Origin: a virus
Lineage: Duplodnaviria > Heunggongvirae > Uroviricota > Caudoviricetes
Strand: one strand, 5' to 3'
DNA length: 10,931 nucleotides
IMG/VR virus record: IMGVR_UViG_2534681938_000031
Shown: piece after piece, positions 6,001-10,931 of the stretch
Layout of the letters: every line of letters begins with the position of its first letter
Numbering within the stretch: the stretch's first letter is position 1
Program-made: the position numbers

Positions 6001-9000
6001 TGGCTAAACATCAAAAAGGCGATGTTGCCAGCGTATCCGGCACGATGCAGGTAAGCCAGTGGACCGGACAGAACGGAGAAACGCGGCAGGGCTGGCAGGT
6101 TATCGCAGACAGCGTAATCAGTGCCCGCGCGGCACGTCCAGGCGGGAACAGACGCAAAACCACAGGCACACAGGGTAATCAGCCACCAGCGGGAGGCGAT
6201 GACCCTTACGGTGATGATATTTCGTTCTGAGGGGGTGACGATGGTACATGACCGCATAGCGGAGGAACTGGAGGCGAAAGGCTTTTACCGGAGGGCGGCG
6301 GCGCGATGGGGTGAAGTCATGCAGCTGGTGGAGACAGACAAGGAACGGCATCACATCACGATGCGACGGCTGGAATGTTCAAGGAAGGCACAGAGGGCAC
6401 CGGAGCCGCCGGATAATTTCGGAGACCTGAAAAAGGCAGTCGATCGCACTTATGCCGAAATGGGTATAGATGGTGCTGGTGATGAAATATGGCGCAATTA
6501 CCAGGACAGCTAATCAAACAGCCGGAGAAATCCGGCTTTTTTTGCACCAGTTGAAACGGTATGGCGCATTACCGGGTTTTCGTCACGGTCAGGCATAGTT
6601 ACTATCTGAAACAAACAGACACAACAGAGGAAAAAACAATGCCGATGAAATTTGATGAGATATTAAAACAGCGTGATAAATACCATGCTGACAACATGGA
6701 GACGATGAGCATCAATGATTACCGCGCATTCCTGGAGACGGGCGCACTGATTGAAAAGGATCAGCATGGTTTTGTGAGATGTGCTCTATCCGGTGAAATG
6801 CTGGCGGTAAATCCTGAACAGATAGATGCATTGATAGAATTTCTGAAAGAGATCAGAGACTGAGCCAGCACACAGCACACATAGCCGGAGCAATCCGGCT
6901 TTTTTGCGCCCAAAAAAAGCCCGATAAGGTCAGAGGGTTCTTATCGGGCTTTTGCATATGAGGTTTTTGGATGCACTGGCGTTCGTGATCGGGATAATCA
7001 TTTCATAATTTGCAACATAACTCAATATCATTGCATAAAATGCAATTCTGATTATAATCAGGACTGGATAAACATCCAGTTATGATTTTTTTAGTCGAAG
7101 AGGAATTTCTTACTATGGCTGAAGAGAAAAAAAGCGGTGTTTCGGTGTACATAAGCCCCGAAATCGTGGAGGTGCTCAAGCAGCGCCACAAAAAAACTAT
7201 GAAGCTGGCGTTGCGGCTGGACTGGATCCGCTGATGACGCCGGAGCCGTCGATAGGTTCACTTGTACGCTCTTATTTACTTGCGGCGCTTGGGATGCATA
7301 AAAATTATGGGGGTGAATAATGGCAGGCAAAGCAACGGCACTTAACACTAACCAGCTTTTCATGTACCTGAATCGCGGGGATATTGCGGATTTTAAATTC
7401 AGCCCTCTGTTTACCACGCTGTTTTTCCCGAACGTGGCGACATTCAGCACGCAAAACATCATGCTGGATACCCTGGACATTGAAGAAGTCACCATGTCGG
7501 CGTTTTGTTCGCCTATGGTGGGTAGCCAGGTTCAGCGCGATAAAGGGTACGAAACCAGCACAATCAAACCTGGCTACATGAAGCCAAAGCACGAAATCGA
7601 TCCAACGAAAACCATCATGCGCATGGCTGGAGAAGATCCGGCACAGCTTAACGACCCTACCTATCGCCGTATGCGCCTGATTACTGGCAACATGCGCCGC
7701 CAGATAAACGCCATTAAGGCACGCGTGGAATGGCTGGCGGTGAATGCGGTAACGACCGGAAAAAACATCATTGAGGGCGAAGGCATAGAACGCTATGAAA
7801 TCGACTGGAAAATACCGGAAAACTGCATCATAGAGCAGGCCAAGGGTAAAAAATGGTCCGAGCAGGATAAAGACATGCACGACCCAATCTATGACATCGA
7901 GCTTTATGCTGATCAGGCTGGTTGCCCCGCAAACGTCATGATTATGGGCGCTGAGGTATGGCGCACATTACGCAGCTTTAAAAAATTCCGTGAGCTGTAC
8001 GATCTTTCCCGTGGTTCAGAATCCGCCGCCGAACTGGCCTGTAAAAACCTGGGCGAAGTGGTGAGCTTTAAAGGCTATCTTGGTGATCTGGCCCTTATCG
8101 TCTATTCCGGCAAATACACTGACAGCGATGGTACCGAAAAATATTTCCTTGAGCCTGATTTGCTGGTCCTGGGTAACACCAACAATAAAGGGCTGGTGGC
8201 CTATGGTGCGATAATGGATCAGGAAGCGGTAAGAACGGGCGCAACACAAAACATGTTTTACCCGAAAAACTGGATTGAGGACGGCGATCCGGCGATTGAG
8301 TACGTGCAGACACACAGTGCACCGCAGCCGGTACCGGCAGATATTCGCAAATTTGTTACCGTCAAAATTGGTTAACGGGGGGATTCTATGGACACTCCAT
8401 ACATTGAGTTATTTGCAGGCAGTCAGCAGGTATCCACGACGTTGGTACATTTTGCCGCTGATGCTGGCGTTATTCAGGAATTTACCCCGCTGATGCTGGC
8501 AGACAATGGCGAGTTTAAGCCGTGGGATGGTCAGGAATCTGGCAAGGCTGTTTATCTGACCTCGTACCCTGTGGACACGTCAAAGCAGAAATCAGCACAG
8601 TGTTACAAGACGGGGATATTCAATATTGCCGCCGTTAACTGGCCTGAGAGCGTCGACACCGATGCGAAAAAATGCGCCGCCTTTGCGGGTTCCGGCGTAT
8701 CCGTTCAGCCGCTGGCCCGATAAGCAGGGGGAACGATGGCAACGAATGAAAGCATCATGACGCTACCGCTGGCGAGTAAATTTAAAGTCGAAGCGCGGGC
8801 AATGGCTGACAGAGGTTTATCAACCTATGAGGCCGTATATCAACTAAACAAACTGGAAGAGCAGGACAAGCCGTGCGCTGATGCGATTATGGCGCTTCAT
8901 GAGCATAAAGACTATCAGCCGCTGTTGCGTGCAATGGCAAACGTGCCTTGTATCGATGTTGGTACGGCTAAAAGCATCCTTAGCATGACCATAGAGCAGG

Positions 9001-10931
9001 AACGTCCGAAGGTTGCGCCGGAACTTACCGCAGCCTTTGAAAACTTTATGGACATGCACAGCCCGCAAGCCGTATCAGCTGGCATGGCATACGATGGCAG
9101 AAACCAGGGCGATGACGGCGACATCGATCGCATACTGAAAACCATCTGAGACAAGGCCGGAGAAATCCGGCTTTTTTACGGGTCCTTCCTGGAATTATGG
9201 CCCGTTACGGGGCGGCGACCTCGCGGATTTTCGCTATTTATGAGCCTTTTCAGGGTGGTGGTGGTGGTTTTGTTGTTTGATCTATCTTTATGAATGAAAA
9301 GGGAAAGATGCAAGCAATACACCAACCTGAAGCAGTAATTAAGTTGGTGTATTAATGAAATCTCATCTGATGAACAAAAAAAACATGGCGAAAAGCTGCC
9401 GTGTAAGTGCGACAGCGTTCGACAAGTGGGGAGTAACTCCCGTTGAGCGTAAAGGCCGTGAGGCGTTTTATGATGTTGCCAGCGTGATAGAAAATAGGGT
9501 TAACAATGCAATTAGCCAGCTTATAAACGACAAAGGCGAGATTGACGATGATGAACTTTTACGAGTCAGGATCAGATTACTGACAGCACAGGCAGAGGCG
9601 CAGGAACTTAAAAACGATCGCGATCGCGGTGACGTGATTGATACTGAGTTTTGCCTGTACGCGCTTTCAAAGCTGGCGAGTCAGATTTCATCAATCATGG
9701 ACAGCCTCCCGCTTACTATGCAAAGGAGCTTCCCACAGATTACCCCCGCCATGCTGGACAGGCTTAAAAGGGAAGTGGTTAAAGCCTGTAATGCCAGTGC
9801 CAGAGTTGCCGACAACCTCCCACAGATACTGGCTGATTACTTGAAAGAAACAACCGGAAACGTACCGGAAAAGTTGCTACAGAAGAAAGGCGAGTAACAG
9901 ACGCGCAATTATTGAACAAAAATGAGAAAGGATCTGATAATGGCATTTTCTGGCTAAAATGCCTCGTGTCAGATCCTTTCTTTTTTAATATTTTCATTGT
10001 TAAACAGTCTGTTACAGAGAAGAAGATCGGATCTGACTTTTGCCGGAAAATTCTCATAAACAGATAAAAACCGCGAGGTCGCCGCCCCGTAACGGGCCAT
10101 AATTCCAGGAAGGACCCGACGACACCAGACTATCAGAGCGATGGGGGCACAATGACAGAAGCCGAACTACTGGGATTAATCCGCCGCGTCGCCGGAATCA
10201 GCCAGCAGCATGACGAACAGGCCACACAGCCGGACAGCGTGACCGCTGAAAATTATGTGCGTGTTGTAGCGGAAGTGATGCGCCGTGATGGTATAGAACT
10301 TAATGGCGTTGATATGCGCAACATACGGAACCGCGTTCTTGAAATGCTGGCCTACAATCGCCGCGTTGAACTGTATCGGGAGAAAGAAAAATAACGTACC
10401 ACTGGAAGAAGCCGGAACGGCTGCGGCGGTAACTTGCTGATATTCCCGATAACGCAAAATTGCGCTGGCTACATCCTCACATCTGAGGACTGTTAATCAG
10501 AAGGCCGGAATATATTCACAAACTACGAAATTTTCGTAGTTTAATTAATGGTCTGAACCGCCCCGGGTTTCCTGGAGAGTGTTTTATCTGTGAACTCAGG
10601 CTGCCAGATCATCGTTTCCGATGGAAGCATAATAAGCTTTTTCTGCTTCTGCCGGAGGAGTATGGCCCAGCCTTCCCAGCAATCGTCGATTGTTATACCA
10701 GTCCACCCACGTTAGTGTGGCCAGTTCCACTTCTGCACGGTTTTTCCAGCTCTTACGGTGTATTACCTCCGCTTTGTAAAGACCATTGATGCTCTCAGCC
10801 ATCGCGTTGTCATACGAGTCGCCTGTACTCCCTGTTGATGCCAGTAATCCGGCTTCTTTTAGTCGCTCCGTATAGGCCAGTGACACATACTGAGAGCCTT
10901 TATCGCTGTGATGGATGGTGCCAGACGGACG

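What the first reader, a model, noticed from the sequence alone, without database searches (positions are those of the whole stretch)
7030..10118. Satellite-like island that carries its own lambda-type capsid shell genes and Nu1-like TerS, with no portal, TerL or protease in view
The element combines a P4-type integrase/AlpA, a compact replication module and a late operon encoding clear homologues of lambda gpE (major capsid) and gpD (decoration), then a lambda-type cos and a Nu1-like small terminase. Gene order (E, D, unknown, cos, terS convergent with cosB) is not collinear with lambda (cos-Nu1-A-W-B-C-Nu3-D-E), and no large terminase, portal, protease/scaffold, tail or lysis genes occur in 10.9 kb. 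As far as I recall, classical P4 remodels helper capsids with Sid/Psu, cos-type enterobacterial PICIs redirect packaging without encoding a shell, and capsid-forming PICIs carry complete HK97-type head modules. A satellite supplying only the shell protein, decoration protein and packaging-specificity subunit would be a different parasitic strategy.
Basis: partly seen in the sequence, partly recalled or inferred. Interest (0 to 1): 0.85.

Follow-up and report, generated by a model that had tools for sequence, protein, structure and literature searches.

The report
Known E. coli phage satellite (PICI)
This is an already catalogued E. coli O157:H7 phage-inducible chromosomal island of the EcCICFT073/EcCIO42 family, whose lambda-like capsid, decoration and small-terminase genes are standard parts of that satellite family, not a new parasitic strategy.

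Summary
All four ORFs exist at the stated coordinates: a gpE-like major capsid protein, a gpD-like decoration protein, a 137-aa protein and a full-length Nu1-like TerS, with a lambda-type cos site. No portal, TerL or protease is present. In IS-free reference genomes the island ends about 0.37 kb past the IS insertion point, at a 21-bp att repeat next to phoQ.

The island has the same RefSeq protein accessions as the E. coli EC4115 element listed as a PICI in 2018. Its capsid protein is 97% identical to EcCICFT073 c1499 (PDB 3BQW) and identical to that of EcCIO42. SatelliteFinder's PICI model names integrase, AlpA, primase-replicase, capsid gene and terS as the core components. Deleting c1499 or c1500 in EcCICFT073 changed neither transfer nor interference, and with lambda as helper all packaged DNA was phage-sized.

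The real difference from EcCICFT073 and EcCIO42 is local. The slot between two inverted cos copies holds a 180-aa TerS instead of the 144-aa Rpp. This allele is common (766 of 5,426 complete E. coli genomes). I found no functional study of it in the searchable library. The capsid genes are under purifying selection, and their role remains unknown.

The parts
1..1230 (+). Tyrosine integrase (P4-type arm-binding domain), left end of the island. attL lies 27-47 nt upstream of window position 1, outside the window.
   Evidence: Pfam Arm-DNA-bind_3 5.3e-18 and Phage_integrase 1.5e-16. Position corresponds to WP_000085256.1 in EC4115 and AP026097. att repeat.
1595..1783 (+). AlpA-family regulator/excisionase
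   Evidence: Pfam Phage_AlpA 5.4e-17; PHROG excisionase and transcriptional regulator 2.5e-17.
3972..5371 (+). RepA-family helicase with primase-like N-terminus (pri-rep). It is split into two ORFs in the window by a 1-nt deletion in an A-run at 4357, probably a sequencing error.
   Evidence: Pfam AAA_25 1.6e-43; phrog_2850 3e-267 for the intact reference protein; indel mapping.
5820..6230 (+). Single-stranded DNA-binding protein
   Evidence: Pfam SSB 9.3e-16; PHROG 4.5e-39.
6241..6513 (+). PerC-family transcriptional activator (accessory/virulence regulator)
   Evidence: Pfam PerC 1.2e-42; annotated as PerC family in the references.
7115..7320 (+). 68-aa conserved ORF immediately upstream of the capsid gene (phrog_3255). 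It is frameshifted in the window by a 1-nt homopolymer deletion at 7190.
7320..8375 (+). Lambda gpE-type major capsid protein, full length; orthologue of EcCICFT073 c1499
   Evidence: Pfam Phage_cap_E 5.5e-50; PDB 3BQW E 9e-232, 96.6% aa identity; 43% identity to lambda gpE; dN/dS 0.06-0.23 among the PICI copies.
8388..8723 (+). Lambda gpD-type head decoration protein; orthologue of EcCICFT073 c1500
   Evidence: Pfam HDPD 5.1e-18; PDB 1TD0 1.7e-13; 98% identity to the CFT073 copy; dN/dS 0.06-0.30.
8736..9149 (+). 137-aa protein. Residues 46-119 resemble the C-terminal tail that follows the S49 protease domain in the gpC-type protein of a lambdoid phage, suggesting a scaffold-tail-like role (inference).
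   Evidence: phrog_53 4.7e-9 at profile positions 495-567 of 583. BLASTP 3e-10 to residues 416-493 of 501 of the CFT073 phage-4 S49 protein, whose S49 domain ends near residue 293. No similarity to lambda Nu3 or FI. The AF2 model is all-helical but low confidence, pLDDT 48.8.
9153..9176 (+). Intrinsic terminator hairpin GCCGGAGAAATCCGGC followed by a T-run; one of three copies of the same hairpin in the window
   Evidence: -14.1 kcal/mol, z -4.1
9179..9254 (+). cos1: cosQ-cosN in lambda orientation. The cohesive-end sequence GGGCGGCGACCT is at 9210-9221.
   Evidence: 33 of the first 34 nt after the nick are identical to lambda. It corresponds to the functional cos1 of EcCICFT073.
9244..9354 (+). 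Island-specific cosB-like tract between cosN and terS. The GGTGGTGGTGGTTTTGTTGTTTGATC core is conserved in four TerS-type islands and resembles the N15 cosB segment.
9355..9897 (+). Full-length Nu1-type small terminase (TerS), occupying the slot that holds rpp in EcCICFT073 and EcCIO42
   Evidence: Pfam Phage_Nu1 3.2e-23; phrog_57 8.1e-53. 36% identity to lambda Nu1 and 44% to N15 gp1. No similarity to RppA. dN/dS 0.12-0.27.
9920..9986 (+). Strong terminator hairpin after terS
   Evidence: -32.8 kcal/mol, z -8.7; I2
10043..10118 (-). cos2: inverted copy of cosQ-cosN, with the cosN complement at 10076-10087. Its cosB side faces terS and is partly lambda-like.
   Evidence: 31/46 identical to lambda at positions 35-80
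10152..10432 (+). 93-aa conserved last gene of the island (phrog_1561). It is truncated in the window by a homopolymer deletion at 10387.
10554..10931 (-). IS629/IS1203 (IS3 family) end, inserted inside the island about 370 bp before attR. Not part of the satellite.

Best explanation
The window is a classical Gram-negative, cos-type phage-inducible chromosomal island (PICI) of the EcCICFT073/EcCIO42 lineage. It sits at the roxA-phoQ attachment site of E. coli O157:H7-type strains and is about 11.0 kb from attL to attR.

It most likely lives as its characterised relatives do. A lambdoid helper triggers AlpA expression. Int and AlpA excise the island. The RepA-type primase-helicase and SSB replicate it into concatemers. 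Helper head, tail and TerL proteins package it from its own cos site.

The packaging-specificity step differs from EcCICFT073. Instead of Rpp, which re-programmes the helper's TerS, this allele encodes a complete Nu1-type TerS. I infer the following steps:
- its N15-like winged-helix N-terminus binds the island-specific cosB next to cos1;
- its lambda-like C-terminus recruits the helper's TerL;
- TerL cuts the lambda-identical cosN.
This would divert terminase from helper DNA, in the way the small terminase of pac-type SaPIs does.

The gpE-like, gpD-like and 137-aa scaffold-tail-like genes are standard, selectively maintained cargo of this family. Their function is still unknown, and in EcCICFT073 the first two are dispensable for transfer.

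Shown: gene identities, cos sites, family membership, island boundaries, purifying selection. Inferred: the TerS mechanism, helper dependence of this particular island, and the role of the 137-aa protein.
For: Same island already catalogued. The reference islands that match the window (AP026097, DEC4E) carry the same RefSeq protein accessions for Int, capsid, decoration, 137-aa, TerS and last-ORF proteins as EC4115. The EC4115 element is listed as an 11.2-kb PICI in Table S1 of PMC6092414.

Orthology to characterised PICIs.
- Capsid protein matches PDB 3BQW (CFT073 c1499) at E 9e-232.
- EcCICFT073 sits at the same roxA-phoQ site with the same gene order.
- EcCIO42 is 99.66% identical over window 2553-9250 and has identical capsid and decoration proteins.

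The family definition includes capsid and terS (PMC10085698; PMC10111431).

The island is bounded by a 21-bp direct repeat, with phoQ right after it and no further phage genes.

The same architecture recurs at other sites with other integrases: tRNA-Pro in ATCC 25922, near tRNA-Ile in FDAARGOS_1262, and inside a lambdoid portal gene in strain A5.

The capsid, decoration and TerS genes are under purifying selection, dN/dS 0.06-0.30. They are no closer than 47% (capsid) and 44% (TerS) to anything in 50,697 phage records, so they are a satellite lineage rather than recent prophage debris.

TerS is full length and aligns end to end with Nu1-type proteins, including the C-terminal region. cos1 lies 145 nt upstream in lambda orientation, with a conserved non-lambda cosB tract.

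O157 genomes carrying the island also hold 3-5 further lambda-type cos sites, which are candidate helpers.
Against: No experiment on this TerS-type island was found in the searchable literature. Helper dependence and the TerS mechanism are therefore by analogy.

The similarity of cosB to N15 is short and weak on its own: 31 of 200 shuffles give a comparable motif somewhere in the window.

In this window the island carries an IS629 insertion. It also shows frameshifts in repA and two small ORFs. These look like homopolymer sequencing errors, but if real they would make this copy defective.

The sequence beyond the IS in the window's own genome cannot be seen.
Confidence: 0.88

Rival explanations
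1. Partial capsid-former. The island builds its own shell from its gpE-like, gpD-like and scaffold-tail-like proteins on a helper portal, possibly a smaller capsid, and uses its own TerS with helper TerL. That would be a strategy intermediate between classical PICIs and cf-PICIs.
For: The capsid protein is full length and aligns with gpE from end to end. Capsid and decoration genes are under purifying selection in two divergent PICI lineages. The third gene resembles the tail region downstream of the S49 protease domain in a lambdoid gpC-type protein. The genes form a satellite-specific lineage at most 47% identical to any phage. The published capsid-size test used only lambda and an Rpp-type island.
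Against: In EcCICFT073, whose capsid, decoration and 137-aa proteins are 96-98% identical to those here, deleting c1499 or c1500 changed neither interference nor transfer by lambda, phi80 or the natural helper. c1499 could be replaced by a cat marker. All packaged DNA was phage-sized with lambda. The 137-aa gene is replaced by an unrelated AlpA-like gene in the second capsid lineage. No portal or protease is present.
Confidence: 0.08
2. The capsid-module proteins are interference or compatibility factors rather than building blocks. They could co-assemble with, or compete against, the capsid or scaffold proteins of particular lambdoid phages. The 137-aa protein might act like the SaPI CpmB competing scaffold. 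Alternatively they could serve as spare copies when related islands interrupt a helper late gene.
For: Purifying selection without a transfer phenotype. The helper-embedded relatives integrate into helper late genes, most often E, while carrying their own capsid gene. The 137-aa protein shares only the C-terminal tail of the phage-4 gpC-type protein and not lambda Nu3, which suggests helper-type specificity.
Against: Deleting c1499 or c1500 did not relieve interference with lambda. The main interference factor of the sister island is Rpp. There is no direct evidence for any such activity, and there are no PADLOC hits.
Confidence: 0.25
3. Degraded lambdoid prophage remnant: leftover head and packaging genes with no function of their own.
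For: It was historically annotated as a defective prophage or O-island; it has IS629 insertions; the Icd-like gene is a pseudogene.
Against: Precise att repeats and a constant 11-kb architecture recur at several att sites with different integrases. Selection is purifying. No phage has relatives above 47% identity. The gene order is not lambda's. The sister islands are experimentally mobilisable satellites.
Confidence: 0.02

Closest known systems
EcCICFT073 (PICI-A; Fillol-Salom et al. 2018 ISME J, 2019 Mol Cell)
   Same: Same roxA-phoQ site and the same 21-bp att core. Same order: int, alpA, DUF4222, replication gene, SSB, PerC, 68-aa ORF, capsid, decoration, 137-aa ORF, cos1, packaging-specificity gene, inverted cos2, 93-aa ORF. 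Capsid protein 96.6%, decoration 98.2% and 137-aa protein 96.4% identical.
   Different: The gene between the two cos copies is rppA (144 aa; re-programmes the helper TerS) rather than a 180-aa Nu1-type TerS, and the two show no detectable similarity. The cosB tract differs. The replication gene is a 1755-nt primase-family gene rather than a RepA-family helicase gene.
EcCIO42
   Same: 99.66% nucleotide identity over window 2553-9250. Identical capsid and decoration proteins, and the same RepA-family replication gene.
   Different: Integrated in tqsA with a different integrase allele. Carries rpp instead of terS. Similarity breaks at cos1 and resumes at cos2.
EcCIEDL933 (cf-PICI; Sakai Sp7 / O-island 51)
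   Same: Same att site. The left part is shared: 98% identity over window 1-2307 and 94% over 5570-6904, including SSB and PerC/PchE. The last ORF is 91% identical.
   Different: Has a complete HK97-type head and packaging module: capsid, protease, portal, adaptors, terS and terL. It makes its own small capsids. None of these genes is here.
pac-type SaPIs (TerS-S) and SaPIbov5 (Ccm capsid homologue)
   Same: Functional analogy: a satellite-encoded small terminase redirects helper TerL to satellite DNA, and a satellite-encoded capsid homologue is present (established knowledge of SaPIs).
   Different: Gram-positive lineage, headful rather than cos packaging for TerS-S, no sequence relationship, and Ccm has a demonstrated size-redirection role.
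Phage lambda / N15 cos-Nu1 packaging module
   Same: cosQ-cosN is nearly identical to lambda (33 of the first 34 nt after the nick). cos precedes terS as in lambda. The TerS N-terminus and cosB motif are closest to N15.
   Different: No TerL follows terS. cosB is not lambda's. TerS is only 36-44% identical. The E and D homologues lie upstream of cos and in E-D order.
Satellite phage P4
   Same: P4-type integrase with arm-binding domain, AlpA-family regulator, Icd-like gene, unidirectional layout.
   Different: No hit annotated as Sid, Psu, Delta or Epsilon in Pfam or PHROG scans, though no dedicated search with those proteins was run. The helpers are lambdoid cos phages rather than P2.

Membership tests
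Gram-negative PICI (Fillol-Salom 2018; SatelliteFinder PICI model) | Integrase at the left end | tested here: met
   1-1230: Pfam Phage_integrase and Arm-DNA-bind_3
Gram-negative PICI (Fillol-Salom 2018; SatelliteFinder PICI model) | AlpA/MerR/Stl-type regulator next to int | tested here: met
   1595-1783: Phage_AlpA 5.4e-17
Gram-negative PICI (Fillol-Salom 2018; SatelliteFinder PICI model) | Primase-replicase module | tested here: met
   3972-5371: AAA_25 / RepA helicase with primase-like N-terminus, plus SSB. The apparent frameshift at 4357 is a homopolymer deletion.
Gram-negative PICI (Fillol-Salom 2018; SatelliteFinder PICI model) | Capsid-morphogenesis (capsid homologue) component | tested here: met
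   7320-8375: Phage_cap_E 5.5e-50; orthologue of c1499 / PDB 3BQW
Gram-negative PICI (Fillol-Salom 2018; SatelliteFinder PICI model) | Small terminase or other packaging-redirection component, plus a cos or pac site | tested here: met
   9355-9897: Phage_Nu1 3.2e-23. cos1 at 9179-9254 and cos2 at 10043-10118
Gram-negative PICI (Fillol-Salom 2018; SatelliteFinder PICI model) | Size about 10-15 kb, bounded by att repeats, with no other structural or lysis genes (no terL, portal, tail, holin) | tested here: met
   21-bp direct repeats 10,998 bp apart in AP026097, with phoQ immediately after. No such genes in Pfam or PHROG scans.
Gram-negative PICI (Fillol-Salom 2018; SatelliteFinder PICI model) | Unidirectional rightward gene organisation | tested here: met
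   All annotated island genes are on the + strand
Gram-negative PICI (Fillol-Salom 2018; SatelliteFinder PICI model) | Helper-phage-dependent induction, packaging and high-frequency transfer | not testable with these tools
   Shown only for the sister islands EcCICFT073 and EcCIO42. I found no experiment on a TerS-type island.
Rpp-type cos PICI (Fillol-Salom 2019) | Encodes an Rpp protein (139-154 aa) downstream of cos1 | tested here: not met
   The slot holds a 180-aa Nu1-type TerS. BLASTP against RppA gives E 3.4. No PDB hit to the Rpp structures.
Capsid-forming PICI (cf-PICI) | terL, portal, prohead protease and head-tail adaptor/connector genes | tested here: not met
   None in the window or in the complete reference islands. 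Compare Sakai Sp7 at the same site, which has them.
P4-like satellite | Sid, Psu, Delta, Epsilon and alpha-primase genes | tested here: inconclusive
   No hit annotated as any of these in the Pfam or PHROG scans of the island proteins. Only the integrase, AlpA and Icd-like genes are shared. No dedicated search with Sid, Psu, Delta or Epsilon was run.
Lambdoid prophage (intact or degraded) | Lambda-collinear late region (cos-Nu1-A-W-B-C-Nu3-D-E...) or close similarity to phage genes | tested here: not met
   The order is E-D-137aa-cos-terS. The best phage identities are 47% (capsid) and 44% (TerS) among 50,697 records.

The most novel reading that the evidence does not exclude
In the common but unstudied TerS-type allele, the island may be more self-sufficient than EcCICFT073. 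Its own TerS would make it independent of the helper's TerS. With natural 21-like or phage-4-like helpers, its gpE-like, gpD-like and scaffold-tail-like proteins might contribute to, or re-size, the capsids it travels in. That would be an intermediate between classical PICIs and cf-PICIs. The published negative results used an Rpp-type island, and lambda for the capsid-size test.
Probability: 0.1. Interest if true: 0.6.

Novelty: already known. Interest (0 to 1): 0.15.

Why it matters
As a finding it mainly corrects the record. Capsid and decoration homologues plus a packaging-specificity gene are the norm in enterobacterial PICIs, and this exact island was catalogued in 2018.

Three small points remain open.
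1. Two alternative packaging-specificity genes, rpp and a full-length Nu1-type terS, occupy the same slot between inverted cos copies. The terS allele is the more frequent one in complete E. coli genomes, yet I found no functional study of it.
2. The conserved capsid, decoration and 137-aa genes are under purifying selection but have no known phenotype.
3. In O157:H7 the same att site holds either this classical PICI or the cf-PICI EcCIEDL933, which share their regulatory and replication half. This is a clean natural example of module swapping between the two satellite types.

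Tried and rejected
- Degraded-prophage reading: rejected on island boundaries, recurrence at several att sites, purifying selection, and the lack of close phage relatives.
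- 137-aa protein as lambda Nu3 or FI homologue: no BLASTP similarity.
- 137-aa protein named by NCBIfam or Pfam: no hits. Some database copies are labelled 'phage head-tail connector protein', but I found no model supporting that name.
- AlphaFold2 of the 137-aa protein with 15 near-identical homologues: pLDDT 48.8, all-helical, too poor for a fold search, so none was run.
- Homologue search for the 137-aa protein: only E. coli proteins, mostly 83% or more identical, so no deeper profile could be built.
- PDB search with TerS: no significant hit, neither the lambda Nu1 N-terminal domain nor Rpp.
- Rfam scan of the window: nothing at gathering threshold. PADLOC on ten island proteins: nothing. 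tRNA scan: none.
- Sigma-70 promoter scan of 6400-10560: no more hits than in shuffles.
- Literature searches for an experimental study of a Nu1-type TerS in an E. coli PICI: none found in the library.
- The N15-like cosB motif alone is not statistically compelling. I keep it only as a lead.

Full report
**1. What is in the window**

All substantial genes lie on the + strand:
- a tyrosine integrase with a P4-type arm-binding domain (1-1230);
- an AlpA-family regulator (1595-1783);
- Icd-like remnants;
- several small ORFs and a DUF4222 protein;
- a RepA-family helicase with a primase-like N-terminus (3972-5371);
- SSB (5820-6230);
- a PerC-family activator (6241-6513);

That module is real, and its ORF coordinates are exact.
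- 7320-8375 encodes a full-length gpE-type major capsid protein (Pfam Phage_cap_E 5.5e-50; 43% identical to lambda gpE over its whole length).
- 8388-8723 encodes a gpD-type decoration protein (HDPD 5.1e-18).
- 8736-9149 encodes a 137-aa protein with no Pfam family.
- 9355-9897 encodes a 180-aa Nu1-type small terminase (Phage_Nu1 3.2e-23; 36% identical to lambda Nu1, E 1e-33).

A lambda-type cosQ-cosN lies at 9179-9254, with GGGCGGCGACCT at 9210-9221. It is 145 nt upstream of terS and in lambda's orientation. A second copy lies inverted at 10043-10118; the 76-nt arms are 91% complementary. The window ends in an IS629/IS1203 fragment that starts at 10554.

**2. Boundaries**

The window matches E. 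coli O157:H7-type chromosomes between roxA and phoQ. In IS-free references (AP026097, EC4115) the island is flanked by a 21-bp direct repeat, CGGTGTAGTTAATGGTGTAGT, with copies 10,998 bp apart. The right copy is followed directly by phoQ. The IS in the window sits inside the island, about 370 bp short of attR. So there is no room for terL, portal, protease, tail or lysis genes.

The window differs from AP026097 by no substitutions, only by five single-base deletions in A/T homopolymers (4357, 6631, 7190, 9981, 10387). This is the signature of long-read sequencing error. It explains the apparent frameshifts in repA, the 68-aa ORF upstream of the capsid gene, and the last ORF.

**3. It is a known satellite**

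- The capsid protein matches PDB 3BQW, 'putative capsid protein of prophage', at E 9e-232. It is 96.6% identical to the capsid protein encoded in EcCICFT073, which the 2018 paper calls c1499.
- EcCICFT073 occupies the same roxA-phoQ site and has the same gene order, including two cos copies.
- EcCIO42 is 99.66% identical over window 2553-9250 and has identical capsid and decoration proteins.
- The reference islands that match the window carry the same RefSeq protein accessions as the EC4115 island. That island is listed as a PICI of 11.2 kb in Table S1 of Fillol-Salom et al. 2018 (PMC6092414).
- Tommasini et al. note that 21 of 29 reference Gram-negative PICIs carry a major capsid gene (PMC10111431).
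- SatelliteFinder's PICI model lists integrase, regulator, primase-replicase, capsid-morphogenesis gene and small terminase as the five core components (PMC10085698).

**4. The 'own shell' idea has been tested in the sister island**

In EcCICFT073, deleting c1499 or c1500 did not relieve interference with lambda. It also did not affect transfer by the resident helper. c1499 could be replaced by a cat marker with good transfer by lambda and phi80. With lambda as helper, all encapsidated DNA was phage-sized (also the review PMC6893505).

Two caveats apply. The size test used lambda only, and the island tested is Rpp-type.

**5. What differs here**

Between the two cos copies, EcCICFT073 and EcCIO42 carry rpp. 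Its 144-aa product binds the helper's TerS and redirects it to the island's cosB (PMC6739421). This island instead carries a full-length Nu1-type terS with no detectable similarity to RppA. Similarity to EcCIO42 stops at cos1 and resumes at cos2, so the cassette is exchanged between the inverted cos copies.

The terS cassette occurs in 766 of 5,426 complete E. coli genomes, against 104 for the rppA cassette. The rpp count is a lower bound, because divergent rpp alleles escape megablast.

The same architecture with terS recurs at other attachment sites with other integrases:
- next to tRNA-Pro in ATCC 25922;
- near tRNA-Ile in FDAARGOS_1262;
- inside the portal gene of a lambdoid prophage in strain A5, a helper-embedded PICI.

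Among these TerS alleles the N-terminal 100 residues are nearly invariant, while the C-terminal ~55 residues vary. In lambda Nu1, the C-terminal region is the TerL-binding part (PMC9026076).

The closest phage TerS is N15 gp1 at 44% identity. It shares the short winged-helix segment (AFDKWGV-PVE). The island's conserved cosB tract contains TTTGTTGTTTGATC, which resembles N15's GGTTGTTGTTTAATC at a similar position. That motif alone is not statistically strong.

cos2's cosB side is partly lambda-like: 31/46 identities at positions 35-80, against 24/46 for cos1.

RppA's N-terminus hits the same TerS PHROG as this protein, at 3.9e-8. This agrees with the published structural similarity between the Rpp and Nu1 DNA-binding domains.

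**6. Likely mechanism**

By homology with the characterised islands: a helper triggers AlpA; Int and AlpA excise the island; RepA and SSB replicate it into concatemers; helper proteins package it.

For the specificity step I infer that the island's TerS binds its own cosB next to cos1 and recruits the helper's TerL, which cuts the lambda-identical cosN. That would make the helper's TerS unnecessary and would compete with helper packaging, as the small terminase of pac-type SaPIs does.

O157 genomes carrying the island contain 5-7 lambda-type cosQ-cosN sites, which is 3-5 potential helpers besides the island's own two.

None of this has been tested for a TerS-type island in the literature I could search.

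**7. The capsid module**

Capsid, decoration and TerS genes show dN/dS of 0.06-0.30 among island copies. Two capsid/decoration lineages, only 54-55% identical to each other, are both paired with the same TerS lineage. Nothing in 50,697 phage records exceeds 47% (capsid) or 44% (TerS) identity. These genes are therefore maintained, satellite-specific genes and not debris.

Residues 46-119 of the 137-aa protein resemble the extreme C-terminal tail of the CFT073 phage-4 S49 protein: BLASTP 3e-10 to its residues 416-493 of 501, and phrog_53 at 4.7e-9. That region lies well beyond the S49 protease domain, which ends near residue 293. In lambda the nu3 scaffold gene is nested in the 3' part of the corresponding gene C, so I infer that this tail is scaffold-related. 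The protein has no similarity to lambda Nu3 or FI. Its family is confined to E. coli. An AlphaFold model was helical but unreliable. In the second capsid lineage this slot holds an unrelated AlpA-like gene.

A scaffold-tail-like protein next to capsid and decoration homologues recalls the competing scaffold CpmB of SaPI1. Given the negative genetics in EcCICFT073, I rate a capsid-building or capsid-resizing role as unlikely but not excluded.

**8. Context**

Sakai and EDL933 carry, at the same att site, the capsid-forming PICI EcCIEDL933 (Sp7 / O-island 51). It shares the integrase-to-PerC part of the island (98% over 1-2307, 94% over 5570-6904) and the last ORF. In place of the module described here it has a complete HK97-type head, terS and terL module.

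**9. Verdict**

- Observation: confirmed.
- Satellite identity: supported.
- Novelty: not supported. This is an already catalogued classical Gram-negative PICI.
- The only open points are the untested function of the Nu1-type TerS allele and the long-standing unknown role of the PICI capsid-module genes.

Noticed in passing
window 4357, 6631, 7190, 9981, 10387: The window's only differences from the closest reference (AP026097) are five single-base deletions, all in A or T runs of six or more, with no substitutions. This is probably long-read homopolymer error. It creates apparent frameshifts in repA, the 68-aa ORF and the last ORF.
   Followed up: yes
window 6521-6541, 6884-6904, 9156-9176 (+): The same terminator hairpin, GCCGGAG(A/C)AATCCGGCTTTTT, occurs three times: after PerC, after the 74-aa ORF, and after the 137-aa ORF just before cos1. 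None is expected by chance. It suggests modular transcription units that may need read-through or antitermination.
   Followed up: partly
window 9179-9254 and 10043-10118; L006 (EcCIO42), L004 (EcCICFT073): The alternative packaging-specificity genes (terS here, rpp in EcCIO42 and EcCICFT073) are exchanged between the two inverted cos copies. Identity to EcCIO42 is 99.66% up to 9250, absent in between, and 91% from 10043 onward.
   Followed up: yes
window 10043-10075 (cosB side of the inverted cos2): The cosB-proximal sequence of cos2 is partly lambda-like (31/46 identities at positions 35-80, including TCCGATCTTCTTCT against lambda TCCGTTCTTCTTCG). cos1's is not (24/46). The two cos copies may therefore be read by different small terminases. 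cos2 is decayed in FDAARGOS_1262 and absent in strain A5.
   Followed up: partly
L005 (Sakai, NC_002695.2 1594711-1610171): The same roxA-phoQ att site in Sakai and EDL933 holds the capsid-forming PICI EcCIEDL933 (Sp7). It shares the int-to-PerC part of the island and the last ORF with this island but has a complete HK97-type head, terS and terL module.
   Followed up: yes
L009 (E. coli A5, NZ_CP028769.1): A relative with the same int-alpA-primase-SSB-capsid-decoration-cos-terS layout is integrated inside the portal gene of a lambda-like prophage whose own TerS is essentially lambda Nu1. This is a helper-embedded PICI. Its TerS C-terminus (LDENIPLMLSDY) is closer to lambda's (LDELIPGLLSEY) than the window's is (VADNLPQILADY).
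   Followed up: partly
window 6990-7115: The AT-rich region upstream of the capsid operon contains two palindromes, ATTGCATAAAATGCAAT and TGATTATAATCA. It also has a stable hairpin with a T-run at 7062-7088 (-13.8 kcal/mol, z -4.6). These are possible regulatory elements of the late module.
   Followed up: no
window 9316-9353: An 11-nt perfect inverted repeat (AATACACCAAC ... GTTGGTGTATT) lies immediately upstream of the terS start codon and overlaps the likely ribosome-binding site. The left arm is conserved in all four TerS-type islands, the right arm only in two.
   Followed up: partly
L001 (DEC4E) 18368-20223; window 10554-10931: IS629/IS1203 has hit this island at different places in different O157:H7 strains: inside terS in DEC4E, and downstream of the last ORF in the window. 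Individual copies may therefore be immobilised.
   Followed up: partly
window 2284-2457 (-): A 57-aa antisense ORF in the Icd-like region lies in the region where EcCICFT073 and EcCIO42 have an opposite-strand gene annotated as YlcI/YnfO family. It is not annotated in the O157 references.
   Followed up: no
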